Shown: positions 9,166-24,314, numbered from the stretch's first letter. The stretch is DNA of 64,000 nt from an uncultured Alphaproteobacteria bacterium (GCA_963734185.1 CAVTGA010000001.1:386711-450710); one strand, 5' to 3'. Notes: generated from the letters alone by a model not told the origin. Translations and numbers: made by a program.

Positions 9166-9642
9166 ATGCCCGCGGTCTCTATGGCGGTGAACGGCAAGCC
9201 CGTCACCGGCGACGTCGACGCGCGCACCCTGCTGGTCCAATTCCTGCGCGAGACGCTGCGTCTCACCGGCACCCATGTCGGATGCGACACCTCGCAATGC
9301 GGCGCCTGCGTGGTCCACGTGAACGGCAAGGCGGTCAAGGCCTGCACGGTGTTCGCCTGGCAGGTCGACGGCGCCAACATCACCACCATCGAGGGCCTCG
9401 CCAATGGAAACACGCTGCATCCCATGCAGGAGGCGTTCCGCGAGCATCACGGCCTGCAGTGCGGCTTCTGCACGCCGGGCATGATCATGACCGCGGTCGA
9501 CATGGTCAACCGCAAGGGCAACACGCTCGACGAGCGCACCATCCGCGACGAGCTCGAGGGCAACATCTGCCGCTGCACGGGCTACCACAACATCGTCAAG
9601 GCGATCGCGGCCGGCGCGCAAGCCATGGGCAAAGCCGGTTGA
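9166..9642 (+). CDS. coxS: (2Fe-2S)-binding small subunit of a CODH/XDH-family molybdoenzyme
   Basis: Two [2Fe-2S] motifs are present ([11 protein letters not shown]… and [10 protein letters not shown]…CRCTGY). A strong GAGGAGG RBS lies upstream. Confidence 0.85.
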
Positions 9643-9705
9643 TCCGACAAGGCCGCCGGTGAGAGCGGTCGCACAATTCCCCTACATCCGGCTGGAGGAG
9701 ACGCC

Positions 9706-12075
<2,370 letters not shown>

Positions 12076-12077
12076 GG

Positions 12078-12185
12078 CCCTCGTCCTGAGGAGCCGCGCG
12101 TAGCGCGGCGTCTCGAAGGACGGGAGCAAGCGGCCACCCTTCGAGACGCGCCCTTTCAGGGCGCTCCTCAGGGTGAGGCGCAGGG
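12078..12185. repeat. nested palindromic REP-like element
   Basis: cgtctcgaagg…ccttcgagacg forms an inverted repeat, nested inside cctgaggagc…gcgctcctcaggg arms. Confidence 0.5.
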
Positions 12186-12213
12186 AGAGCAGACAAGTTT
12201 AGGGAGAGCCACG

Positions 12214-13059
12214 ATGTACAACTTCACTTTCCACCGTCCGGGCGGCCTGCGCCAGGCGCAGAACATGCTGGGCAAGCTGGAGGAGGCGAAAATCCTCGCC
12301 GGCGGCCAGTCCTTGATCCCGACCATGAAGCTGCGGCTGGCCAGCCCCGCCAACATCGTCGACCTGTCGAAGATCGAAGGCCTTGCCGGCATCGAGCTGA
12401 AAGGCCGCTCGCTCGTCATCGGCGCGATGACGCGCCACGCGGAGGTGGCCAGCTCCGACGCGGTCAAGGGCAGCATCCCGGCGCTCGCGAGCCTCGCGAA
12501 TGTGATCGGCGATCCCGCGGTGCGCCACCAGGGCACGATCGGCGGCTCGGTTGCCAACAACGATCCGAACGCCGACTACCCGGCGGCCTGCCTCGGGCTC
12601 GGCGCCACCATTGTCACCACCAAACGGCGCATCGCGTCGGACGACTTCTTCAAGGGCCTGTTCGAGACCGCGCTCGAGCCGGACGAGATCGTCACCAAGG
12701 TGATGTTCCCGATCCCCAAGAAGGCCGGCTACATGAAGTTCCGCAACCAGGCCTCGCGTTTCGCGCTAGTCGGCGTTTTCGTGTCGAAGCGCGGCAGCGA
12801 GATCCGCGTCGCCGTCACCGGCGCGGGCTCGAGCGGCGTGTTCCGCGTCAAGGCGTTCGAGGAGGCGCTGAAGAAGCGCTTCGCCGCCAAGTCGCTGGAG
12901 GGCCTGACCGTGCCGGCGACCGGCATGAACGCCGACATCCACGGCAGCGCCGAATACCGCGCGCATCTCGTCGCCGTCATGGCGCGGCGCGCGGTGGCGG
13001 CGGCGAACGAGGCGCCATCCGCTGACGCGGATGAGGGAGGCGTGGTCGGCAACGGGTAG
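12214..13059 (+). CDS. coxM: FAD-binding medium subunit of the CODH-like enzyme
   Basis: 281-aa FAD-binding PCMH-type domain (ILAGGQSLIPTMKLRLASP…). Confidence 0.85.
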   Translation: MYNFTFHRPGGLRQAQNMLGKLEEAKILAGGQSLIPTMKLRLASPANIVDLSKIEGLAGIELKGRSLVIGAMTRHAEVASSDAVKGSIPALASLANVIGDPAVRHQGTIGGSVANNDPNADYPAACLGLGATIVTTKRRIASDDFFKGLFETALEPDEIVTKVMFPIPKKAGYMKFRNQASRFALVGVFVSKRGSEIRVAVTGAGSSGVFRVKAFEEALKKRFAAKSLEGLTVPATGMNADIHGSAEYRAHLVAVMARRAVAAANEAPSADADEGGVVGNG

Positions 13060-13061
13060 CA

Positions 13062-13172
13062 CTAGAGCACGATGACTTTTCTTCGAATCGTCATCGCGCT
13101 CTAAGTTATTCGTGGAGCATGATCTTTTCCGAAAACCGCTGCGCACTTTTCGGGATCATGCTCTAGCATCGA
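13062..13172. repeat. two adjacent palindromic REP elements; the second is a gagcatgatc…gatcatgctc type
   Basis: ctagagcacgatgac…gtcatcgcgctctaag and gagcatgatcttttccgaaaaccgctgcgcacttttcgggatcatgctc are both inverted repeats. The same family recurs at 34843-34925. Confidence 0.6.
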
Positions 13173-13221
13173 GCCACGTCGGCCCTCGCGGATTGGCGGC
13201 AAAGGCATTAGATAGCTGGCC

Positions 13222-14160
<939 letters not shown>

Positions 14161-14166
14161 CCGGCC

Positions 14167-15378
<1,212 letters not shown>

Positions 15379-15393
15379 CCTATATGTGCGTCA

Positions 15394-15735
15394 TTGGAGG
15401 ATCCGATGGACACGCTCGCGCGCGATGAAGACATCCTCAAAGCCGCCGAGGACTGGCGCAAGGCCGGGCGCGGCGTGGCGCTCGCGACCGTGGTCGAGAC
15501 CTGGGGCTCGGCGCCGCGGCCGGTCGGCTCCAACCTGGTGATCGACGACCAGGGCAATTTCCTCGGCTCGGTGTCGGGCGGTTGCGTCGAAGGAGCGGTC
15601 GTCACCGAGGCGCTCGACGTGATCGAGAGCGGCAAGCCGAAGACGTTGGAATTCGGCGTCGCCGACGAGGCCGCCTGGAAGGTCGGGCTCTCCTGCGGCG
15701 GCACCATCCGGGTGTTCGTCGAGAAAGTGGAGTAG
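15394..15735 (+). CDS. XdhC/CoxI-family protein (short, N-domain type)
   Basis: 113 aa containing the XdhC_CoxI motif (VALATVVETWGSAPRPVGSNLVIDDQGNFLGSVSGGCVE). Confidence 0.7.
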   Translation: MEDPMDTLARDEDILKAAEDWRKAGRGVALATVVETWGSAPRPVGSNLVIDDQGNFLGSVSGGCVEGAVVTEALDVIESGKPKTLEFGVADEAAWKVGLSCGGTIRVFVEKVE

Positions 15736-15759
15736 CGCCGTGAACGTGCCGCATGCTCC

Positions 15760-16165
15760 GCTTACCTCCCCCCTTGTGGGGGAGGCCGGCGCGCGAAGCG
15801 CGGCGGGAGGGGGACTTTCGTCAGCACGGAAGTTGACCCCCTCCCTAACCCTCCCCCACAAGGCAGGGCTATCGCATATGACGCCGTTGCTTTGGTTGTC
15901 GCGCCGAAAGCGCCACAGTACCTCCCCCCTTGTGGGGGAGGTCGACCGCCGGAGCCCGCAGGGCGACGGCGGGCGGGAGGGGGTCCGCTTTTCTTTGTCT
16001 GAGAAGGTTTTTCGTGCTTGTGGCGAGTCCCCCTCCGGCCTCGCTTCGCGAGGCCACCTCCCCCACAAGGGGGGAGGTACTGTGGCGCTTTCAGTGCCTA
16101 TTTCGTCACAGACACGGCGCTGCGTGTCATATGCGATAGCCCTCCCCCACAAGGGGGGAGGGGAC
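15760..16165. mobile_element. MITE-like nested palindromic insertion built from CCTCCCCC(TTGTG/CACAA)GGGGGAGG 20-mers
   Basis: At least five copies of the 20-bp palindrome occur in both orientations. They are arranged as nested long inverted repeats: gaaagcgccacagtacctcccccc…/…ggggggaggtactgtggcgctttc, and gctatcgcatatgacg…/…cgtgtcatatgcgatagc. The 151-aa ORF called across this region is not coding. Confidence 0.6.
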
Positions 16166-16191
16166 GCGCCGGCGTTTGCGGGGCGACCCTT

Positions 16192-16884
16192 GTGAAACTC
16201 GACATCCTCAAAGCCCTCAACGCCGAACGCGCGGCGCGGCGCGCGACGGTCGTCGTAACCGATCAGGACAGCGGCGCGCAGCGGCTGGTCACGCAAGACG
16301 GCATCGCCGGCGATCCCCTGAAGGACGTGCTCGAAGCCCATCTGCGCTCGGGCAAGAGCGGGATGGAAGAGACCGCGCAGGGCAAGGTCTTCCTCACCGT
16401 GCACGTGCCGCCGACGCGACTCGTCATCACCGGAGCCGTGCACATCAGCCAGGCGCTGGCGCCGATCGCCAGATTGCTCGGCTACGACGTCACCATCGTC
16501 GACCCGCGCACCGCGTTCGCCAGCATCGAGCGCTTTCCCGACGTGAAGGTGATCGCCGAATGGCCGGACACGGCGCTCCCCGCCCTCGGCATCGACCGCT
16601 ACACGGCGTTCGTCGCGCTCACCCACGATCCCAAGATCGACGATCCCGCGCTCACTCATGCGCTGGCGCGCGACTGCTTTTATATCGGCGCGCTCGGCTC
16701 GAAGAAGACGCACGGCCGCCGCCTCGAGCGCTTGAAGGAGCAAGGCGTGAGCGAAGCGCAGCTCGCGCGCATCCACGCGCCGATCGGGCTTGCCATCGGC
16801 GCGGTGTCGCCGGCCGAGATCGCACTCGCCATCATGGGCGAGATCACGGCGCGCCTGCGGCTTACAGCGGATGGCAAGCGATGA
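16192..16884 (+). CDS. XdhC-family protein (Rossmann-like C-domain type)
   Basis: XdhC_C-like sequence …RLVITGAVHISQALAPIARLLGYDVTIVDPR…ALTHDPKIDDPAL…. A GTG start at 16192 is inferred because the upstream part of the ORF is repeat DNA. Confidence 0.6.
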   Translation: MKLDILKALNAERAARRATVVVTDQDSGAQRLVTQDGIAGDPLKDVLEAHLRSGKSGMEETAQGKVFLTVHVPPTRLVITGAVHISQALAPIARLLGYDVTIVDPRTAFASIERFPDVKVIAEWPDTALPALGIDRYTAFVALTHDPKIDDPALTHALARDCFYIGALGSKKTHGRRLERLKEQGVSEAQLARIHAPIGLAIGAVSPAEIALAIMGEITARLRLTADGKR

Positions 16885-18500
16885 AGTTCGGCGCAGTCCC
16901 GCCGGCCGAAGCCGAAGGCGGCATCGCGGTGCATTCGATCCGCCAGGGCAACCTCGTGCTCAAGAAGGGCACGGTGATCGGGAAGGCGGAGATTGCCGCG
17001 CTCGCCGCCGCGGGCATCGGCGAGGTCGTGGTGGCGCGGCTCGAACCGGGCGACGTGTCGGAGGACCGGGCGGCGGCCGAGATCGCCGCTGCGGTCGCGG
17101 GCGAGGGCGTGCACGTCGAGCGCGCTTTCACGGGCCGCGCCAATCTGTTCGCGGAAGCTCCCGGCGTGTTGGTGGTCGACAGGCAAGCGATCGACCGCCT
17201 CAACGAGGTCGACCCCGACATCACTTTTGCGACCCTGCCGGCCTTCGCGCCGGTCGTCGCCGGCAAGATGATCGCGACGGTGAAGATCATTCCGTTTGCG
17301 GTGTCGGGCACGGCGCGCGACCGGGCGCTCGCGGTCGCGCAGGCGGCCAAGCCCATCATGCGCGTTGCCCCTTATGCGCGAGCCAAGGTCGGCATCATCT
17401 CGACCGTGCTGCCGGGACTCGCCGACAAGGTGATCGACAAGACCCTGCGCGTGACCGCGGAGCGGCTCGCGCCCGCAGGGGCGCGTATCGTCGCCGAGCG
17501 GCGCGTACCGCATGAGGCGCAAGCGCTTGCCCGCGCGCTCGACGAGGTGCTAGGCGCCGGCGCCGAGCTCGTCATCGTATTCGGCGCCTCGGCCATCGCC
17601 GACAAGCGCGACGTGATCCCGGCCGCGGTCGAGGCGATCGGCGGACGCATCGAGCATTTCGGCATGCCGGTCGATCCCGGCAATCTTCTCCTCATCGCCG
17701 ACGCGCATGGCCATCCGGTGCTGGGAGCGCCCGGCTGCGCGCGCTCGCCGAAGGAAAACGGCTTCGACTGGGTGCTGATGCGCCTGCTGGCCGGACTGCC
17801 GGTCAAGCGCACCGATATCACCGGCATGGGGGTCGGCGGGCTGTTGATGGAGATCGTGACGCGGCCGCAGCCGCGCGCGGAGCCGGCTCCCGAAGCCGGC
17901 CGCAAGGTCGCCGCTTTGGTGCTTGCTGCCGGCCGCTCGACCCGTATGGGCGGACCGAACAAGCTGCTCGAGCAGGTCGGCGGCAAGCCGCTGGTGCGCA
18001 TTGCGGTCGAGCAGGCACTCGCCTCGCGCGCCAGTCCCGTGATCGTGGTCACCGGTCATCAGCGCGAGCGGGTCGAGCAGGCGCTCGCTGGGCTGCCGCT
18101 GCAATTCGTGCACAATCCGGACTTTGCAGAAGGGCTTTCGACCTCGCTCAGGACCGGCATCGCGGCCGTGCCGGCCGCGGCGGACGCGGCAATCGTCTGC
18201 CTCGGCGATATGCCGCACGTGACCGGCAAGCTGATCGACCGGCTGATCGCGGCCTTCGACCCGGCGCGCGGCGCTTTGGTCGTGGTGCCGACGATCGCGG
18301 GCAAGCGCGGCAACCCGGTGGTGTGGTCGCGCCGCTTCTTCGGTGACCTGATGGCGGTCGACGGCGACGTCGGCGCGCGTCATCTGATCGCGGGCTACGC
18401 GGAAGCGGTGACCGAAGTGGCGCTGGAGGACGCCGGAGCGCTGACCGACGTCGATACGCCGGAGGCGTTGCGCGCCGTCAAGGCGGCGGTCGAAGCCTGA
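16881..18500 (+). CDS. fusion of a molybdopterin-binding (MoeA/CinA-like) domain and a MobA-like nucleotidyltransferase (MocA-like); predicted Mo-cofactor maturation protein
   Basis: The ATG overlaps the preceding stop (ATGA). The N-terminal half is MoCF-biosynthesis-like. The C-terminal half (…VAALVLAAGRSTRMGGPNKLLE…) is a MobA/MocA-type cytidylyltransferase. Confidence 0.7.
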   Translation: MKFGAVPPAEAEGGIAVHSIRQGNLVLKKGTVIGKAEIAALAAAGIGEVVVARLEPGDVSEDRAAAEIAAAVAGEGVHVERAFTGRANLFAEAPGVLVVDRQAIDRLNEVDPDITFATLPAFAPVVAGKMIATVKIIPFAVSGTARDRALAVAQAAKPIMRVAPYARAKVGIISTVLPGLADKVIDKTLRVTAERLAPAGARIVAERRVPHEAQALARALDEVLGAGAELVIVFGASAIADKRDVIPAAVEAIGGRIEHFGMPVDPGNLLLIADAHGHPVLGAPGCARSPKENGFDWVLMRLLAGLPVKRTDITGMGVGGLLMEIVTRPQPRAEPAPEAGRKVAALVLAAGRSTRMGGPNKLLEQVGGKPLVRIAVEQALASRASPVIVVTGHQRERVEQALAGLPLQFVHNPDFAEGLSTSLRTGIAAVPAAADAAIVCLGDMPHVTGKLIDRLIAAFDPARGALVVVPTIAGKRGNPVVWSRRFFGDLMAVDGDVGARHLIAGYAEAVTEVALEDAGALTDVDTPEALRAVKAAVEA

Positions 18501-18579: not shown

Positions 18580-18954
18580 ATGGTCTTGCGTCATGGCGTC
18601 GGCACCGCCTTCATCGTTGCCTTTCTGATCGGATCCAGCGCTTGCGCCGATGCGGCCGGCGCGCTCGCGGTCGGCCGCTGCGGGGCCTACGGCTACGCGT
18701 TCGACTCAGGGACCATGCAGGAAGCGCAGACGCGCGCGGCGAGCGAGTGCAAGGGCGCCGGCTGCCGCATCGTCGCGACGGTGCAGCGGCAATGCGCCGC
18801 GCTCGCGGTCGATGCCCGCAACGCCTGCGGGCCCCACGGCTGGGCCACCGCGCGCACGCTCGGCCGGGCGCAGAACGTCGCGGCGCAGCAATGCTACCGC
18901 TATGGCGGTCGCGACTGCGTCATCCGCGCCTGGCTTTGCGACGGCCGGGGGTAG
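18580..18954 (+). CDS. DUF4189-like secreted Cys-containing protein
   Basis: Signal peptide followed by two GAYG/GWA-type repeats with paired cysteines (GRCGAYGYAFD…CKGAGC…CGPHGWATA…). Confidence 0.55.
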   Translation: MVLRHGVGTAFIVAFLIGSSACADAAGALAVGRCGAYGYAFDSGTMQEAQTRAASECKGAGCRIVATVQRQCAALAVDARNACGPHGWATARTLGRAQNVAAQQCYRYGGRDCVIRAWLCDGRG

Positions 18955-19091
18955 TGCGGGTTCAAGCCGGCATAGCAGACATGTTCTTACCGACCGTGAC
19001 GGCGGCATCAGGCTGCTGCCGCGTCGGACCATTTTGATATAGGCTCCGCCCAACCTACGGGTGCCAAAAACCCCGGCAAAGGGAGGGCGAC

Positions 19092-21215
19092 ATGAGACTG
19101 AGACAGACCTTGTATGCGACGGTCGCGGCGGTCGGCATCGCGGCATTCGTGGCCCCCGTCAACGCGCAACAGCCCGCAGCGGTTACGATCGATGCTGACG
19201 ACATCGGCGGCGCGGTCACCGGTCCGAACGGCCCGGAAGCCGGCGTCTGGGTGATCGCCGAGACCAAGGACCTCTCCACCAACTACATCAAAAGCGTGGT
19301 GACCGACGATCAGGGCCGCTACCTGATCCCCGACCTGCCGGCGGGCGCGACCTACACGGTGTGGGCGCGCGGCTACGGCCTGGTCGATTCCGCCAAGGTG
19401 GCGAGCCGCCCGGGTCAGATCGTCAACCTTACCGCCGTGCCGGCGCCGACGCCGAAGGCCGCCGCCGAGATCTATCCGGCGATCTACTGGTATTCGATGC
19501 TCAAGGTGCCGGGAAAGCACGAATTCCCGCTCGGCAACGCCAAGAGCCAGCCCGAGTGGCTCAACGTGGTCAAGACCAACGGCTGCTACGGCTGTCACGC
19601 GCTCGGCAACAAGGCGACGCGCACGATCCCGCAGCAGTTCGCCGACATGAGCTCCGAGGACGCCTGGGCGCGGCGCATCCTGTCGGGCCAGGCCATGAAC
19701 AACATGGCGACCGCGATCGGCCGCCTCGACGCGCAGCGCGCGCTCAAGCTTTACGCCGACTGGACCGACCGCGTCGCGGCGGGCGAGCTGCCGGCTGCGA
19801 AGCCGCCGCGGCCGCAGGGCAAGGAGCGCAACGTCGTCGTCACGCAGTGGGACTTTTCCGATCCCAAGCACTACCTGCACGACATCACCGCGACCGACAA
19901 GCGCAAGCCGACGCTCAACGCCAACGGCCTGATCTACGGCGCGGTCGAGAACTCGACCGACCTGATCCCGGTGCTCGACCCGGTCAATCACAAGGCGACG
20001 TCGTTCAAGATGCCGGTGCGCGATCCCAACACGCCCTCGCACAAGAATGATGCGATGTCGGCTTCGCCCTACTGGGGCGATGAGGTGCTCTGGGATGGCC
20101 AGAGCAGCACGCACAACCCGATGTACGACCAGAACGGCCGGGTGTGGTGGACGTCGCGCGTCGGCGTCGCGGACAATCCGGCCTTCTGCAAGCAGGGCTC
20201 GGACCACCCGTCGGCCAAGGTATTCCCGATGGCGTCGTCGACCCGGCACCTGTCGATGCTCGATCCCAAGACCGGCAAGATCACGCTGATCCGTACCTGC
20301 TACCAGACGCATCATCTGATCTTCGCCGAGGATGCCAACAACACGCTTTGGATGAGCGCGGGCGGACCCGGCAGCGGCGCATTGGGCTGGCTCGACACCA
20401 GGAAATTCGACGAGACCGGCGACGAGGCCAAGTCGCAGGGGTGGACGCCGATCGTCATCGACACCAACGGCAACGGAAAGCGTGACGAATGGGTCGAGCC
20501 GAACCAGCCGGTCGATCCGACCAAGGACAAGCGCGTCGTGGGCGCGCTCTATGGCATCGGCGTCAATCCGCAGGACGGCACGATCTGGGGCTCGATCCTG
20601 ACCTTCCCGGGCTACATCATCCGCGTGAATCCGGGACCGAACCCGTCCGAGACGGCGCTGTCGGAGATCTACGAGCCGCCGGCGCCGGGCTACGGCCCGC
20701 GCGGCTTCGACATCGACCGCAACGGCGTCGCCTGGGTGCCGCTGTCGAGCGGCCACATGGCAAGCTTCGACCGCAGGAAGTGCAAGGGGCCACTCAACGG
20801 CCCGGCCTCGGCCACCGGGCGGCATTGCCCGGAGGGTTGGACGCTCTACGACTTCCCCGGCCCGAAGCACGCCGACGCGCCGGACGTCGGCAGCGCGGAA
20901 GCGAGCTACTATACCTGGGTCGATCAGTTCGACACGTTCGGGCTCGGGCGGGACGTGCCGTGGGCCACCGGCAACGCCAACGAGTCGCTGATGGCGCTGG
21001 TCGACGGCAAGTGGCTCAACTTCGTGGTTCCCTATCCGCTCGGCTTCTATGCCAAGTGGATGGACGGCCGCATCGACGATCCCAACGCCGGCTGGAAGGG
21101 CAAGGGCGTGTGGGCCACCTACGGCACCCGCGTGCCGTTCCATCTCGAGACCGGCAAGGGGACGCGGCCGAAGGTGGTGAAGTTCCAGCTGCGGCCCGAT
21201 CCGCTGGCGAAGTAG
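19092..21215 (+). CDS. secreted 707-aa protein with an N-terminal carboxypeptidase-regulatory-like domain and a single haem-c motif (CYGCH)
   Basis: Signal peptide (…AAFVAPVNAQQ), a CarboxypepD_reg-like β-sandwich (GVWVIAETKDLSTNYIKSVVTDDQGRYLIPDLPAGATYTVWARGYG), NGCYGCHALGNK, then a W/G/P-rich region that looks like a β-propeller. Confidence 0.6.
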   Translation: MRLRQTLYATVAAVGIAAFVAPVNAQQPAAVTIDADDIGGAVTGPNGPEAGVWVIAETKDLSTNYIKSVVTDDQGRYLIPDLPAGATYTVWARGYGLVDSAKVASRPGQIVNLTAVPAPTPKAAAEIYPAIYWYSMLKVPGKHEFPLGNAKSQPEWLNVVKTNGCYGCHALGNKATRTIPQQFADMSSEDAWARRILSGQAMNNMATAIGRLDAQRALKLYADWTDRVAAGELPAAKPPRPQGKERNVVVTQWDFSDPKHYLHDITATDKRKPTLNANGLIYGAVENSTDLIPVLDPVNHKATSFKMPVRDPNTPSHKNDAMSASPYWGDEVLWDGQSSTHNPMYDQNGRVWWTSRVGVADNPAFCKQGSDHPSAKVFPMASSTRHLSMLDPKTGKITLIRTCYQTHHLIFAEDANNTLWMSAGGPGSGALGWLDTRKFDETGDEAKSQGWTPIVIDTNGNGKRDEWVEPNQPVDPTKDKRVVGALYGIGVNPQDGTIWGSILTFPGYIIRVNPGPNPSETALSEIYEPPAPGYGPRGFDIDRNGVAWVPLSSGHMASFDRRKCKGPLNGPASATGRHCPEGWTLYDFPGPKHADAPDVGSAEASYYTWVDQFDTFGLGRDVPWATGNANESLMALVDGKWLNFVVPYPLGFYAKWMDGRIDDPNAGWKGKGVWATYGTRVPFHLETGKGTRPKVVKFQLRPDPLAK

Positions 21216-21354
21216 ATCGCTTGTCCCGGACGCGGTGCAGCGTCCAACGCTGCGCCGCAAATCCGGGACCGTTCCATAACTCGGTGCCTTTGACGGTCCC
21301 GGTTCTGCAGCGCAGCACTTCGTACTGCGCTGCGCCCGGGACGCGGAGAAAGCG

Positions 21355-21864
21355 ATGATGGACTTCGTCTACGACACCATCTCGGTCAACGCGTTCTGGA
21401 CCATCCTGTTCATCGTGCACGCGCTGCTCGCGGTCGCGCTCATCGGCGCGCTCACCCATCAGGCGATGTCGGTGCTGTTGCCGGTGCACCAGGTCATCGG
21501 CTCGGCGAGCTTCCTCACCCGCTTCCGCGCGGTGCGCGGCGCGGGCTACGCCGGCGCGGTCTGCATGCTGTGGATCGTCACGTTCGTGTTCGGCGCGTGG
21601 ATCTATACCAAGTACCGCATCTCTGTCCGCATCCCGATCGAGCAGGAAGGATTCTGGAAAACCCAGGGGGCCTTCGAGCTGAAGGAGCACCTTGCTGTCA
21701 TCGGGCTCGGGCTGTTGCCGATCTACTGGTATTTCTGGAACAACGCGCGCAACACCGAATACGACAGCCCGCGGCGCTGGCTGACCGTGACGCTTGCGGC
21801 CATGTGCTGGTACATGTTCCTCACCGGGCACATCGTGAACAACGTACGGGGCTTCGGATCATGA
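21355..21864 (+). CDS. small four-helix membrane protein with conserved His residues
   Basis: Four hydrophobic helices; His residues sit in or near them (HALLAV, THQAMSVLLPVHQ, TGHIVNN). Confidence 0.5.
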   Translation: MMDFVYDTISVNAFWTILFIVHALLAVALIGALTHQAMSVLLPVHQVIGSASFLTRFRAVRGAGYAGAVCMLWIVTFVFGAWIYTKYRISVRIPIEQEGFWKTQGAFELKEHLAVIGLGLLPIYWYFWNNARNTEYDSPRRWLTVTLAAMCWYMFLTGHIVNNVRGFGS

Positions 21865-22250
21865 GCACCACGGTCGAAAGGAGCGCGATGGCGTCCGCAT
21901 CGTCACTTGCCTCCTCGGCGACGTTCCGCTCCTTCGCGGTGGTGTTCGCCATCGCGACGCCGGTGATCTACGTCGCCTGCGAAATGATGAACTGGCCGCT
22001 GTTCACCTATCATCCGGGAACCGACCGCATCGATCTCGGCCGCGCGCCGGCGGTGCGCGACGAGGGGCCGGCCATGTACTGGTACGGCTGGACCGCGACC
22101 ACGTTGCTCGGCGCGGCCGTGCTCGGTCTGCTCGCCACCAGGCTGCCCGCAAGCGCGGTCAGGAAGATTCCATTGGCATTGGTCTGGATCCTGCCGCTTG
22201 CGGCGATCCCGATCCTGATCTACGCGCTGAGGTTCTTCTGGCGCTGGTAG
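21861..22250 (+). CDS. small membrane protein, translationally coupled to the previous gene
   Basis: ATGA start/stop overlap. There are three or four hydrophobic helices. Confidence 0.45.
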   Translation: MSTTVERSAMASASSLASSATFRSFAVVFAIATPVIYVACEMMNWPLFTYHPGTDRIDLGRAPAVRDEGPAMYWYGWTATTLLGAAVLGLLATRLPASAVRKIPLALVWILPLAAIPILIYALRFFWRW

Positions 22251-22261
22251 CGGAGGCGGAC

Positions 22262-22636
22262 ATGATGGTCCTGATCCGAACGCTCATGGCAGGCTTGGTG
22301 TTGGTCGCCGCAACCGCGGCGTTTGCCGGCGGCGACGACTATGACGGACCGCGCGACACCGAGGACAGGGGCCCGTCCTATTTCGGCTTCGTGCGCGATG
22401 TGCGCGGTTCGCCGGTGCTGGATGCGCGCGTGGTGCTGCGCCCCAAGACCGGCGATCCGGTCGAGATCAAGACCAACGTGCTCGGACTTTATCGCAGCCA
22501 TGTGCGCAAGGGCGTGCGTCCCGACGAGGTCGAGGTATCGTGCGAGAAGGCCGGCTACCGGCAGGCGAACGTCATCCGCCGGCCCAATACCCAGGACACC
22601 TCGGTCGAAACCAATTGCACGCTGCAACGCCTCTAG
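22262..22636 (+). CDS. small secreted carboxypeptidase-regulatory-like domain protein
   Basis: Signal peptide followed by the β-sandwich motif VRDVRGSPVLDARVVLRPKTGDPVEIKTNVLGLYRSHV. Confidence 0.5.
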   Translation: MMVLIRTLMAGLVLVAATAAFAGGDDYDGPRDTEDRGPSYFGFVRDVRGSPVLDARVVLRPKTGDPVEIKTNVLGLYRSHVRKGVRPDEVEVSCEKAGYRQANVIRRPNTQDTSVETNCTLQRL

Positions 22637-22649
22637 CCGGGGCTGGCCG

Positions 22650-24314
22650 GTGCCGCGGCGATCGATCCTCTACCTCGCTCTGCTGAGTGCGTTGATCTTC
22701 GCCGGAGCGGCGCATTCCCAGTTTCCCGTCGACGCGATCCTGACTGACGGCAAGGTCGTCACCTTCAATTCCGCCCCGGCCGAGGCGCTGGCCGTGCGCG
22801 ACGGCCGCATCGCCGCGATCGGGCGCAGCGCCGACATCCGCGCGCTGGCGGGTCCGGCGACGCGGGTGATCGATCTTGCCGGCCGCACCGTCATTCCCGG
22901 ACTGATCAACTCGCATATCCACGCGATCCGCGCCGGCCTCACCTATGCGACCGAGGTGCACTGGATCGGGGCGCGGACACTTGCCGAGGCGCTCGATCGT
23001 ATCCGCGCGGCGGCCAGAATCGCCCCGAAGGGCGCCTGGCTGGTGGTGGCGGGAGGCTGGGTGGAAACGCAATTCGCCGAGCGGCGCCGCCCGACTCGGG
23101 CCGAGATCGCGGCGGCGGCGCCCGAGCATCACGTCTATGTGCAGATGCTCTACAGCGCGGTGCTGCTCACCGCCGGCGGCATCGAGGCGCTCGGGATCTC
23201 GGGCGACGCCGCGCTCGCCTCGCGCCTCAGCATCGAGACCGGCGCGGACGGCACGCCGACCGGCTGGATCACGGCCGACAACCGCACCATCAGCGAGTTG
23301 TTCGACCGGCTGCCGCGACCGACCTTCGAACAGGAGCTCGCCGGCACGCGCGCGTTCTTCCGCACCCTCAACAGCCTTGGCATCACCGGCGTGCTCGATC
23401 CGGGCGGCTACAATCTCCCGCTCCAGGCCTATCGGGCCGTGTTTCACGTCCAATATCAAGGCGCCCCCGCCATCCGGGTGGTCTACAGCCTATGTGCACC
23501 GCGACGCGACCATGAGCTTGAGGACTTCCACGACCTGATGCCGCCGATGTCTTTCGGCAACACGTGGCTGCGCTTCAACGGCATCGGCGAGAACGTCACC
23601 TGGGGCATGTACAACAACGATGCGCCGACCGAGGCGCAGAAGGAGCAGCTCTATCAGGTGCTGCGGCAGGTGGTGTGGAAGCGCCAGACCGCGACCTTCC
23701 ACTGGAACAACGATCGCTCGGTGCATCATCTGCTCGAAGTGCTGGAGCGCGTGAACGCCGAGGCGCCGATCGCGCCTCTGCGCTGGTCGATCGCGCATCT
23801 CAACGATGCGTCGCTCGCGAGCCTCACGCGCATGAAAGCACTCGGTGTCGGCTGGCTGATGCAGAACGCATTCTATTTCCGCGGCGAGGCCTTCCTCGGT
23901 CAGCAGGGGAGGGAGGCGGTGCGGCTTGCGCCACCGATCGCGACCGCGCTGCGGATGGGGTTACGGGTCGGCGGCGGCACCGATGCGCACCGGGTCATGT
24001 CCTACAACCCGTTCGTCTCGCTGCAATGGATGCTCGACGGCAAGACCGTCGGCGGGGTGGCGATGCGCGCACCCGAAGAGACGCCGACGCGGCTCGAGGC
24101 GCTGCGCCTCTACAGCGAGGGCAGCGCGTGGTTCGCGCATGACGAGGCCAGCCGCGGCGCGCTCGCGGTCGGCAAGCTGGCCGATCTCGCCGTGTTGACC
24201 GCGGACTATCTCACCGTTCCGGTCGGTGAGATCGGCAGCATCCGTTCGCTGTTCACCATGGTCGGAGGGAGGGTGGTGTACGCGGACGGGCCCTACGCGG
24301 CACTTCAGGAATAA
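22650..24314 (+). CDS. secreted metal-dependent amidohydrolase (amidohydrolase-3 type)
   Basis: A GTG start gives a signal peptide (RRSILYLALLSALIFAGAAHS). Metal-binding motifs GLINSHIH and …VGGGTDAH… are present. Confidence 0.65.
   Translation: MPRRSILYLALLSALIFAGAAHSQFPVDAILTDGKVVTFNSAPAEALAVRDGRIAAIGRSADIRALAGPATRVIDLAGRTVIPGLINSHIHAIRAGLTYATEVHWIGARTLAEALDRIRAAARIAPKGAWLVVAGGWVETQFAERRRPTRAEIAAAAPEHHVYVQMLYSAVLLTAGGIEALGISGDAALASRLSIETGADGTPTGWITADNRTISELFDRLPRPTFEQELAGTRAFFRTLNSLGITGVLDPGGYNLPLQAYRAVFHVQYQGAPAIRVVYSLCAPRRDHELEDFHDLMPPMSFGNTWLRFNGIGENVTWGMYNNDAPTEAQKEQLYQVLRQVVWKRQTATFHWNNDRSVHHLLEVLERVNAEAPIAPLRWSIAHLNDASLASLTRMKALGVGWLMQNAFYFRGEAFLGQQGREAVRLAPPIATALRMGLRVGGGTDAHRVMSYNPFVSLQWMLDGKTVGGVAMRAPEETPTRLEALRLYSEGSAWFAHDEASRGALAVGKLADLAVLTADYLTVPVGEIGSIRSLFTMVGGRVVYADGPYAALQE

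What the first reader, a model, noticed from the sequence alone, without database searches (positions are those of the whole stretch)
18580..24314. Uncharacterised periplasmic cluster: DUF4189 protein, mono-haem CarboxypepD_reg/β-propeller-like protein, two coupled small His-containing membrane proteins, a small CarboxypepD_reg protein and a secreted amidohydrolase
The 707-aa secreted protein combines a β-sandwich 'carboxypeptidase regulatory-like' domain, a single CXXCH haem-c site and a large W/G/P-rich body, a combination with no assigned function. The two translationally coupled four-helix membrane proteins downstream carry His residues inside their helices, as cytochrome-b-type electron-transfer subunits do. 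The collinear arrangement, in which all six genes sit on the same strand with short gaps, suggests a periplasmic oxidoreductase or electron-transfer module, possibly acting on an aromatic or amide substrate given the amidohydrolase. No part of this cluster matches a described pathway that I can name.
Basis: partly seen in the sequence, partly recalled or inferred. Interest (0 to 1): 0.65.

Follow-up and report, generated by a model that had tools for sequence, protein, structure and literature searches.

The report
Uncharacterised haem-propeller protein with membrane partners
This is a real, conserved operon for an exported one-haem cytochrome fused to a seven-bladed propeller, two small histidine-bearing membrane proteins and a small exported protein; none of these families has been studied although they are very common in soil bacteria, and it most likely passes electrons between a periplasmic reaction and the membrane.

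Summary
The six genes exist as described; only some boundaries needed correcting.

- **Conserved core.** g2 (707 aa) is followed by g3, g4 and g5 in 16 of 80 related genomic loci. The g3-g4-g5 trio recurs in 8 further metagenome loci, always next to proteins built like g2.
- **Amidohydrolase (g6).** It follows g5 only in the alphaproteobacterial clade. In the Burkholderiales-type operons a roughly 550-aa paralogue of g2 occupies that position.
- **DUF4189 (g1).** It never co-occurs with the other genes, so it is only a neighbour.
- **g3 and g4.** g3 has four long helices and four invariant His. g4 has three hydrophobic segments, not four. Neither has a Pfam family, and g3 has no significant fold match. 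"Cytochrome b-type" is therefore plausible but unproven.
- **Prior work.** I found nothing published on any of these families.

My best reading, at moderate confidence, is a membrane-linked periplasmic redox module with an unknown substrate.

The parts
18580..18954 (+). g1, DUF4189 protein (124 aa) with an N-terminal hydrophobic leader and 8 Cys. It is an adjacent gene and not part of the conserved module.
   Evidence: Pfam PF13827 scores 62.8 bits. No homologue was found in any of 80 related loci, by tblastn or jackhmmer.
19092..21215 (+). g2, long type-A haem-propeller protein (707 aa). Layout: signal peptide (about residues 1-25), β-sandwich (38-115), helical cytochrome c domain (about 120-247), seven-bladed propeller (248-707).
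19584..19598 (+). CYGCH haem c attachment motif (Cys165, Cys168, His169).
   Evidence: Each of the three residues is conserved in 24 of 26 full-length family members.
19704..19706 (+). Met205, candidate sixth haem ligand.
   Evidence: Met in 23 of 26 full-length family members. Its role as a ligand is inferred.
21223..21342 (+). Pair of GC-rich hairpins in the g2-g3 spacer. It looks like a repetitive-palindrome insertion and could stabilise or attenuate the mRNA.
   Evidence: RNA fold of 21210-21360 gives -86.3 kcal/mol, z -7.9 against shuffles. The arms 21223-21272 and 21293-21342 form an inverted repeat. The spacer is only about 20-90 nt in most relatives.
21355..21864 (+). g3, integral membrane protein (169 aa) with four long helices and invariant His22, His35, His112 and His159.
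   Evidence: AlphaFold2 pLDDT 86.5. Invariant columns come from a 58-sequence alignment. No Pfam family. No significant fold match.
21861..22250 (+). g4, membrane protein (129 aa) with three hydrophobic segments. The start overlaps the g3 stop as ATGA. It has an invariant loop motif, FTYHP (His51), and GPAMxWYGW (Met72).
   Evidence: Start and overlap. Alignment and invariant columns. Hydropathy. Relatives show the same 4-nt overlap.
22262..22636 (+). g5, small exported β-sandwich protein (124 aa) with a signal peptide, two invariant Cys and a conserved GPxYFGFVRD motif.
   Evidence: Pfam CarboxypepD_reg 23.1 bits, below the cut-off; the same weak hit is on record for relatives. It always follows g4.
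22650..24314 (+). g6, exported Amidohydro_3 metal hydrolase (554 aa from the GTG at 22650). It belongs to the operon only in the alphaproteobacterial clade.
   Evidence: Pfam PF07969 scores 246 bits. It follows g5 in 12 of the 16 loci that have the trio. Only weak N-terminal matches to solved amidohydrolases.

Best explanation
Genes g2-g5, joined by g6 in this lineage, form one operon for a membrane-linked periplasmic redox module.

**g2.** It is exported. Its seven-bladed propeller resembles virginiamycin B lyase and is the likely substrate-binding or catalytic part, probably metal-dependent as in related propellers. A class-I-type cytochrome c domain sits between the β-sandwich and the propeller. 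Its haem, probably ligated by His169 and Met205, would move electrons one at a time between the propeller site and a partner.

**g3 and g4.** They are made in fixed proportion through the ATGA overlap and probably form a small membrane complex. Three of g3's four invariant His (22, 112, 159) and g4's invariant His51 and Met72 are predicted to face the periplasm. There they could hold a haem b or another metal centre that exchanges electrons with the g2 haem. His35 and Gln36 sit near the cytoplasmic face alongside invariant Arg56, Tyr65 and near-invariant Arg58, and could form a quinone site.

**g5.** It is a small periplasmic β-sandwich subunit or assembly factor.

**g6.** It is an exported metal hydrolase that may prepare or finish the substrate. 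It occupies the position where the Burkholderiales-type operons encode a second, shorter haem-propeller protein.

**Shown:** gene structure, domain architecture, conservation of the haem motif and the His residues, and synteny.

**Inferred:** haem ligation, cofactor content of g3 and g4, membrane topology, direction of electron flow, and any catalysis. The substrate is unknown.
For: - **Synteny in related genomes.** g3-g4-g5 follow g2 in 16 of 80 loci: 14 alphaproteobacterial and 2 betaproteobacterial.
- **Synteny in metagenome loci.** In 8 further loci the trio is always adjacent to CarboxypepD_reg-CxxCH-Vgb_lyase proteins. Those loci are L081-L083 and L089-L091, reached through g3 relatives (Burkholderiales-named where a name is given), and L093. 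In four of them a long g2-type protein lies directly upstream.
- **Haem motif in the neighbours.** Every neighbouring full-length paralogue checked has exactly one CxxCH at about residues 134-176. The two truncated gene calls in L081 differ: one has none and the other has it at residue 51.
- **Nearby soluble cytochromes.** Small soluble cytochromes c are encoded next to three of these operons.
- **Coupling.** The 4-nt g3/g4 overlap is conserved across clades.
- **Haem ligands.** CxxCH is conserved in 24 of 26 and Met205 in 23 of 26 full-length sequences.
- **g2 structure.** The high-confidence model shows a helical domain inserted between the β-sandwich and the propeller.
- **Fold and homology of the propeller.** The propeller is Vgb-like and homologous to PF24684 members.
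- **g3.** Four invariant His in 58 sequences that go down to 42% identity.
Against: - No direct evidence that g3 or g4 binds haem or quinone. They have no Pfam or PDB sequence match and g3 has no significant fold match.
- Three of g3's four invariant His fall on the same predicted face. That is unlike the classic two-haem cytochrome b pattern and fits a non-haem metal site equally well.
- In 64 of 80 loci g2 relatives have no g3-g5 within about 8 kb and no other conserved neighbour. g2 can therefore work without this membrane module, or the module lies elsewhere in those genomes.
- Known propellers of this fold (Vgb, gluconolactonase-type) are lyases or hydrolases, not redox enzymes.
- g2 does not reach any Pfam cytochrome c or Vgb_lyase threshold.
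- There are no expression or biochemical data, and three literature searches found nothing.
Confidence: 0.45

Rival explanations
1. g2 is a periplasmic hydrolase or lyase, for example a lactonase or depsipeptide-opening enzyme like Vgb. Its haem would be a sensor, a structural element or a regulatory switch. The exported amidohydrolase g6 would be a second hydrolytic step in degrading a cyclic ester or amide compound. g3-g5 would anchor or assemble these enzymes without carrying electrons.
For: - The best structural and sequence relatives of the propeller are virginiamycin B lyase and streptogramin B lactonase.
- The paralogues also hit the SGL lactonase family.
- g6 is a metal hydrolase at the operon position that haem-propeller paralogues hold in other lineages.
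- g3 has no detectable relation to any cytochrome b.
Against: - A covalent haem with a conserved Met partner is kept across thousands of sequences and three paralogue subtypes. That is costly for a non-redox role.
- Separate small cytochromes c sit next to several of the operons.
- Conservation of the Vgb catalytic residues could not be established, because the repeated blades align ambiguously.
Confidence: 0.2
2. g3, g4 and g5 form a maturation or metal-delivery system for the propeller proteins. It would import or insert a metal (Cu, Fe or Mn) or a cofactor at the periplasmic face, rather than act as a respiratory partner.
For: - A cluster of three invariant His plus invariant Glu111, near-invariant Glu108 and invariant Asn162/Asn163 lies on one predicted face of g3. 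g4 adds an invariant loop His and Met. The whole set resembles a metal site.
- One trio serves several different paralogues within a single operon.
- Many g2 genes lack the trio nearby, as expected for an accessory factor.
Against: - No similarity to any known metal transporter or chaperone family.
- Strict translational coupling and a position in the middle of the operon are typical of structural subunits.
- The propeller shows no conserved multi-His cluster of the kind copper propeller enzymes have. Only His263 and His408 are conserved there.
Confidence: 0.15
3. The six genes are merely collinear neighbours and share no function.
For: - DUF4189 is never syntenic.
- The flanking genes (MocA-like upstream; TetR, HlyD and ABC genes downstream) are not conserved in any related locus.
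- The g2-g3 spacer is 139 nt and contains strong hairpins.
Against: - g2-g3-g4-g5 order is conserved in Alpha- and Betaproteobacteria down to 40-50% identity for g3-g5.
- The g3/g4 overlap is conserved.
- g6 abuts g5 in 12 loci.
- No terminator-like site was found between the genes on the + strand, apart from one weak site inside g6.
Confidence: 0.05

Closest known systems
Virginiamycin B lyase / streptogramin B lactonase (Vgb; Pfam PF24684; PDB 2z2n, 2qc5)
   Different: Vgb is about 300 aa. As far as I know it is cytoplasmic and has no haem or β-sandwich domain. g2 has a signal peptide, a β-sandwich, a cytochrome c domain and about 170 residues of insertions in the propeller, including a DTNGNGKRD loop that looks calcium-binding. 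It has two conserved Cys pairs that I infer to be disulfides. It fails the PF24684 model. Whether the Vgb catalytic residues are conserved was not established.
Periplasmic cytochrome c-propeller fusion enzymes (cytochrome cd1 nitrite reductase NirS; quinohaemoprotein dehydrogenases)
   Same: The design logic is the same: an exported protein in which a one-haem class-I-type cytochrome c domain is fused to a β-propeller that holds the catalytic cofactor. Electrons pass within the molecule between the two. This comparison rests on my general knowledge of those enzymes.
Small haem-b membrane partners of periplasmic redox enzymes (MsrQ/YedZ and the STEAP ferric-reductase domain, FdnI, hydrogenase cytochrome b, cytochrome b561)
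   Same: g3 is a small helical membrane protein with conserved His, encoded beside a periplasmic redox protein. The His22-x12-His35 spacing in helix 1 recalls the two-haem helices of these families. STEAP1 and hydrogenase-1 cytochrome b appear among the weak fold hits.
   Different: No hit is significant (best E 0.67, TM 0.48). There is no sequence or profile match. Three of the four invariant His lie on one predicted face. The system needs a second, unrelated membrane protein (g4) and a β-sandwich protein (g5).
NapC/NrfH/CymA-type membrane quinol dehydrogenases
   Same: The possible role is the same: one membrane module that serves several paralogous periplasmic redox proteins encoded around it.
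   Different: Those proteins are multi-haem c-type cytochromes with a single membrane helix. g3 and g4 have no CxxCH and are polytopic.

Membership tests
Vgb_lyase family (PF24684) | Sequence match to the family model above the curated cut-off | tested here: not met
   g2 gives no PF24684 hit even at E up to 10. The neighbouring short paralogue L035:11305-12954 scores 109.7 bits against a cut-off of 50.
Vgb_lyase family (PF24684) | Seven-bladed propeller fold most similar to Vgb, and demonstrable homology to family members | tested here: met
Vgb_lyase family (PF24684) | Conserved metal-binding catalytic residues of Vgb | tested here: inconclusive
   The repeated blades give two alternative alignments of the paralogue to Vgb.
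Class I c-type cytochrome domain | CxxCH haem attachment motif, conserved across relatives, in an exported protein | tested here: met
   CYGCH at residues 165-169. Cys, Cys and His are each conserved in 24 of 26 sequences. An N-terminal signal-like leader is present. All full-length paralogues checked carry one CxxCH at the equivalent place.
Class I c-type cytochrome domain | Distal Met ligand and all-helical fold around the haem | tested here: inconclusive
   Met205 is conserved in 23 of 26 sequences and residues 121-247 are modelled as helices. There is no Pfam cytochrome c hit, and ligation cannot be shown without the protein.
CarboxypepD_reg (PF13620) | Match to the family model above the cut-off, with a β-sandwich fold | tested here: inconclusive
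   g2 scores 29.2 bits and g5 23.1 bits against a cut-off of 32.3. g2 residues 38-115 are modelled as an all-β domain. Paralogues score 39.9-60.9 bits.
Membrane cytochrome b families (Ni_hydr_CYTB / cytochrome b561 / ferric-reductase domain) | Sequence or fold similarity to a known haem-b membrane protein | tested here: not met
   No Pfam hit for g3, g4 or any of 58 g3 relatives. A profile of g3 relatives finds nothing in PDB sequences. The best Foldseek hit is STEAP1 at E 0.67.
Membrane cytochrome b families (Ni_hydr_CYTB / cytochrome b561 / ferric-reductase domain) | Pairs of conserved His at matching membrane depth, able to give bis-His ligation of haem | tested here: inconclusive
   Four invariant His in g3. 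From the helix boundaries of the model, His22, His112 and His159 lie towards one face and His35 towards the other. Haem binding itself cannot be tested with these tools.
Amidohydro_3 (PF07969) | Full-length match to the family model | tested here: met
   g6 scores 246 bits against a cut-off of 29.7 and covers model positions 1-472. No specific NCBIfam equivalog comes near its cut-off.
DUF4189 (PF13827) | Match to the family model | tested here: met
   g1 scores 62.8 bits against a cut-off of 25. It is not syntenic with the other genes.

The most novel reading that the evidence does not exclude
The long and short haem-propeller proteins, together with the g3/g4/g5 membrane module, make up a previously unrecognised energy-linked periplasmic oxidoreductase system. 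It would contain a new type of haem- or metal-binding membrane subunit and be widespread in uncultured soil bacteria (Xanthobacteraceae, Burkholderiales, Methylomirabilota/Rokubacteria, Binatia, Acidobacteriota). It would act on an abundant environmental substrate. That would explain why g2 stays 57-84% identical across phyla.
Probability: 0.3. Interest if true: 0.8.

Novelty: new variant of a known kind. Interest (0 to 1): 0.6.

Why it matters
- **Abundance.** The g2 family is very large: at least 8000 clusters at 90% identity (the search's candidate cap) and 6297 clusters at 50% identity.
- **Conservation.** It is unusually well conserved across distant phyla. Almost every genome that carries it is a metagenome-assembled genome from soil or freshwater.
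- **Unstudied.** No member, and no g3, g4 or g5 relative, has a name, a Pfam family (for g3 and g4), a solved structure or a publication that I could find.
- **If it is a respiratory-type module.** It would add a new periplasmic enzyme and a new membrane electron-transfer subunit to soil bacterial metabolism.
- **Testability.** The finding defines a compact set of four or five genes that can be tested directly.

Tried and rejected
- **g3 and g4 as paralogues.** Rejected: BLASTP E 0.43.
- **g5 as a copy of the g2 N-terminal domain.** No significant sequence similarity. They share only the weak Pfam family.
- **g3 related to DUF6644.** DUF6644 membrane proteins follow g2 paralogues in another lineage. 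Rejected: hhalign probability 0.1%. DUF6644, DUF6152 and cytochrome c' are absent from the other 80 loci.
- **Another conserved neighbour of stand-alone g2 genes.** All-against-all clustering of ORFs within 5 kb found none. No small membrane ORFs lie downstream of them.
- **AlphaFold database fold search.** That library was unavailable.
- **Source organism.** Exact look-ups gave no record and no name.
- **Literature.** Three searches on the domain combination, on Vgb plus cytochrome c, and on the annotation phrase found nothing relevant. One candidate preprint concerned unrelated NHL propellers.
- **RNA families.** Rfam finds no known RNA family in or around the cluster.
- **Vgb catalytic residues.** Mapping them onto g2 by sequence was abandoned because the repeated blades align in more than one register.

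Full report
**1. What is in the sequence**

The region holds six + strand ORFs. GC3 is 0.83-0.91 for g2, g3, g5 and the frame that holds g6.
- g1 (18580-18954) is a DUF4189 protein, 62.8 bits.
- g2 (19092-21215, 707 aa) has a hydrophobic leader ending VNA-QQ. It has a CarboxypepD_reg-like stretch just below the Pfam cut-off (29.2 against 32.3 bits). It has a single CYGCH.
- g3 (21355-21864, 169 aa) is followed by g4. The g4 start is the ATG at 21861, which overlaps the g3 stop as ATGA. g4 is 129 aa.
- g5 (22262-22636, 124 aa) has a signal peptide and a weak CarboxypepD_reg hit.
- g6 is an Amidohydro_3 protein, 246 bits. Its plausible start is the GTG at 22650, which gives an RR-containing export signal.

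The gaps are 137, 139, -4, 11 and 13 nt. On the + strand the only terminator-like site is a weak one inside g6. A promoter-like site appears only after g6, in front of the TetR gene.

**2. Surroundings**

Upstream lies a CoxS/L/M-like molybdenum hydroxylase cluster with its MoxR, vWA, XdhC and MocA-like maturation genes, 9166-18500. Downstream are TetR, HlyD and ABC-2 transporter genes. None of these flanking genes, and not g1, is found next to g2 relatives elsewhere.

**3. The large protein, g2**

An AlphaFold2 model built from a 28-sequence alignment is confident (pLDDT 90.7, pTM 0.90). It shows an all-β domain (residues 38-115), a helical domain (about 121-247) that contains CYGCH, and a large all-β body (248-707).
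- No solved chain covers more than the propeller. PDB sequence search finds nothing.
- The relationship to Vgb is homologous. Short (about 550 aa) proteins encoded beside g3-g5 in Burkholderiales match Pfam Vgb_lyase (109.7 bits) and Vgb itself (E 1e-24 to 1e-27).
- One of these short proteins aligns with the g2 family from the β-sandwich through the haem motif to the propeller (hhalign 98%, E 2.7e-13).

g2 is therefore a divergent, insertion-rich subfamily of a β-sandwich/one-haem/Vgb-like propeller superfamily.

Within the g2 family several residue sets are conserved:
- Cys165, Cys168 and His169, each in 24 of 26 full-length sequences.
- Met205, in 23 of 26. I take it as the likely distal haem ligand.
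- Two Cys pairs, 366/403 and 564/579, which are probably disulfides.
- In the propeller, His263-Asp264, His408 and a set of Asp, Glu and Arg residues.

There is no multi-His cluster of the kind seen in copper propeller enzymes.

**4. How common and how conserved**
- g2 has at least 8000 relatives among 90%-identity clusters, which is the search's candidate cap. It has 6297 among 50%-identity clusters, 1319 of them below E 1e-30.
- In species-representative genomes, 414 stretches encode a relative. The best 80 span Alpha- and Betaproteobacteria, Methylomirabilota/Rokubacteria, Binatia, Acidobacteriota, Verrucomicrobiota, Gemmatimonadota and others. They are 57-84% identical to g2, and nearly all are metagenome-assembled genomes.
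- The only source names are "hypothetical protein" or "carboxypeptidase regulatory-like domain-containing protein".

**5. Synteny**
- *Window-type cluster.* tblastn and jackhmmer against the 80 loci find g3, g4 and g5 directly after g2 in 16 loci. Fourteen are Xanthobacteraceae-like Alphaproteobacteria; two are Betaproteobacteria, L014 and L035. g6 is found in 12, all Alphaproteobacteria. g1 is found in none.
- *Stand-alone g2.* The other 64 loci have no conserved neighbour and no small membrane ORFs downstream.
- *Starting from g3.* The g3 family is larger than this first suggests: the two searches returned 1217 and 2654 relatives. Seven loci reached through g3 relatives (L081-L083, L089-L091), together with locus L093, reached through a g2 relative, all show the same module: g3 (about 154 aa), g4 (about 110 aa, with the 4-nt overlap), g5 (about 130 aa), then directly a roughly 550-aa CarboxypepD_reg-Vgb_lyase protein. 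In L081 that protein is split into truncated gene calls.
- *Other neighbours of the trio.* A roughly 720-aa g2-type protein often lies upstream, further short paralogues lie nearby, and a small Cytochrome_CBB3-type cytochrome c sits next to three of the operons.
- *Haem motif.* Every full-length paralogue checked has one CxxCH at the equivalent place.
- *Two long subtypes.* Type A, like the window's g2, is about 70% identical. Type B is 55-61% identical and is usually the one next to g3.
- *Arrays without the trio.* Long-A, long-B and short paralogues also cluster together without g3-g5 in Binatia and other lineages.

The conserved functional unit is therefore one or more haem-propeller proteins plus g3, g4 and g5. 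The amidohydrolase is a lineage-specific occupant of the position held elsewhere by a short haem-propeller.

**6. The membrane proteins**
- *g3 model.* pLDDT 86.5, with four long helices and one short amphipathic helix.
- *g3 conservation.* In 58 relatives going down to 42% identity, His22, His35, His112 and His159 are invariant. So are Gln36, Arg56, Tyr65, Lys110, Glu111, Asn162, Asn163 and Arg165. Glu108 and Arg58 are conserved in at least 90%.
- *g3 topology (my inference).* From the helix limits and the excess of positive charge in loops 1 and 3, I infer that both termini face the periplasm. That puts His22, His112 and His159 towards the periplasm and His35/Gln36 towards the cytoplasm.
- *g4.* It has three hydrophobic segments. 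Its invariant FTYHP and GPAMxWYGW motifs lie in the first loop, which I infer to be periplasmic.
- *Searches that found nothing.* g3 and g4 are unrelated to each other. Neither has a Pfam match, nor do the 58 g3 relatives scanned one by one. A g3 profile finds no PDB sequence. The best fold hit is insignificant: STEAP1, E 0.67, TM 0.48.

The His pattern fits one haem or a non-haem metal site at the periplasmic face at least as well as it fits a classic two-haem bundle.

**7. Mechanism proposed**

The conserved covalent haem with a Met partner, the co-encoded soluble cytochromes, the single membrane module shared by several paralogues and the strict g3/g4 coupling point to electron transfer between periplasmic propeller proteins and the membrane. 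I put this at 0.45.

The rivals are as follows.
- A hydrolase or lyase pathway in which the haem is not an electron carrier (0.2). It is favoured by the Vgb and lactonase ancestry and by g6.
- A metal-delivery or maturation role for g3-g5 (0.15).
- Mere collinearity (0.05). This is refuted for g2-g5 and correct for g1.

The substrate, the propeller cofactor and the direction of electron flow are unknown.

**8. Comparison with known systems and novelty**

The design resembles cytochrome cd1 nitrite reductase, quinohaemoprotein dehydrogenases and enzyme/membrane-partner pairs such as MsrPQ. Homology is detectable only to Vgb-type propellers. g3 and g4 define families with no model or structure. 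Three literature searches found no description. I rate the finding a new variant of a known kind of system: a periplasmic cytochrome-fused propeller enzyme with a membrane partner. There is a real chance, about 0.3, that it is a new respiratory-type module important in soil bacteria.

**9. Limits**
- No coordinates were available, so I could not inspect the distance between haem and propeller or the active-site geometry.
- The g3-g4 complex could not be modelled.
- The AlphaFold database fold library was unavailable.
- The source organism could not be identified.
- Because most relatives sit on metagenomic contigs, absence of g3-g5 near a g2 gene does not prove absence from that genome.

Noticed in passing
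window 15760-16160: An array of five copies, in alternating orientation, of a palindromic element with core CCTCCCCCCTTGTGGGGGAGG and conserved flanks. It lies in the gap between the vWA/CoxE-like gene and the XdhC-like gene and looks like a REP-type repeat cluster.
   Followed up: partly
window 21223-21342: Two GC-rich hairpins arranged as an inverted pair fill the g2-g3 spacer. The RNA fold is -86 kcal/mol, z -7.9. Related loci mostly have a 20-90 nt spacer without it. It may set different expression levels for g2 and g3-g6.
   Followed up: partly
window 9166-18500: A complete CoxS/CoxL/CoxM-like molybdenum hydroxylase gene set, followed by MoxR-like, vWA, XdhC-like and MocA-like (molybdopterin-binding plus NTP-transferase fusion) maturation genes. 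It lies directly upstream of the finding.
   Followed up: no
window 63911-64000: The 5' part of a group II intron (Rfam RF02001, 55.9 bits), cut off by the end of the window.
   Followed up: no
L084-L088, about 2800-12700 in L084: In another lineage two tandem long haem-propeller paralogues are followed by two DUF6644 membrane proteins, a cytochrome c' (Cytochrom_C_2), a DUF6152 protein and two 277-aa secreted paralogues. This may be an analogous but unrelated partner set.
   Followed up: partly
L025 3123-10160: In a Binatia genome the short (555 aa), long-B (723 aa) and long-A haem-propeller paralogues are clustered without any g3-g5 genes. This suggests that the three subtypes work together.
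   Followed up: partly
L091 3327-4400 and 9909-13601: One Burkholderiales operon is flanked by an AtzD/TrzD-type ring-opening amidohydrolase and two Amidohydro_2 genes. That echoes the amidohydrolase attached to the operon in the window lineage.
   Followed up: no
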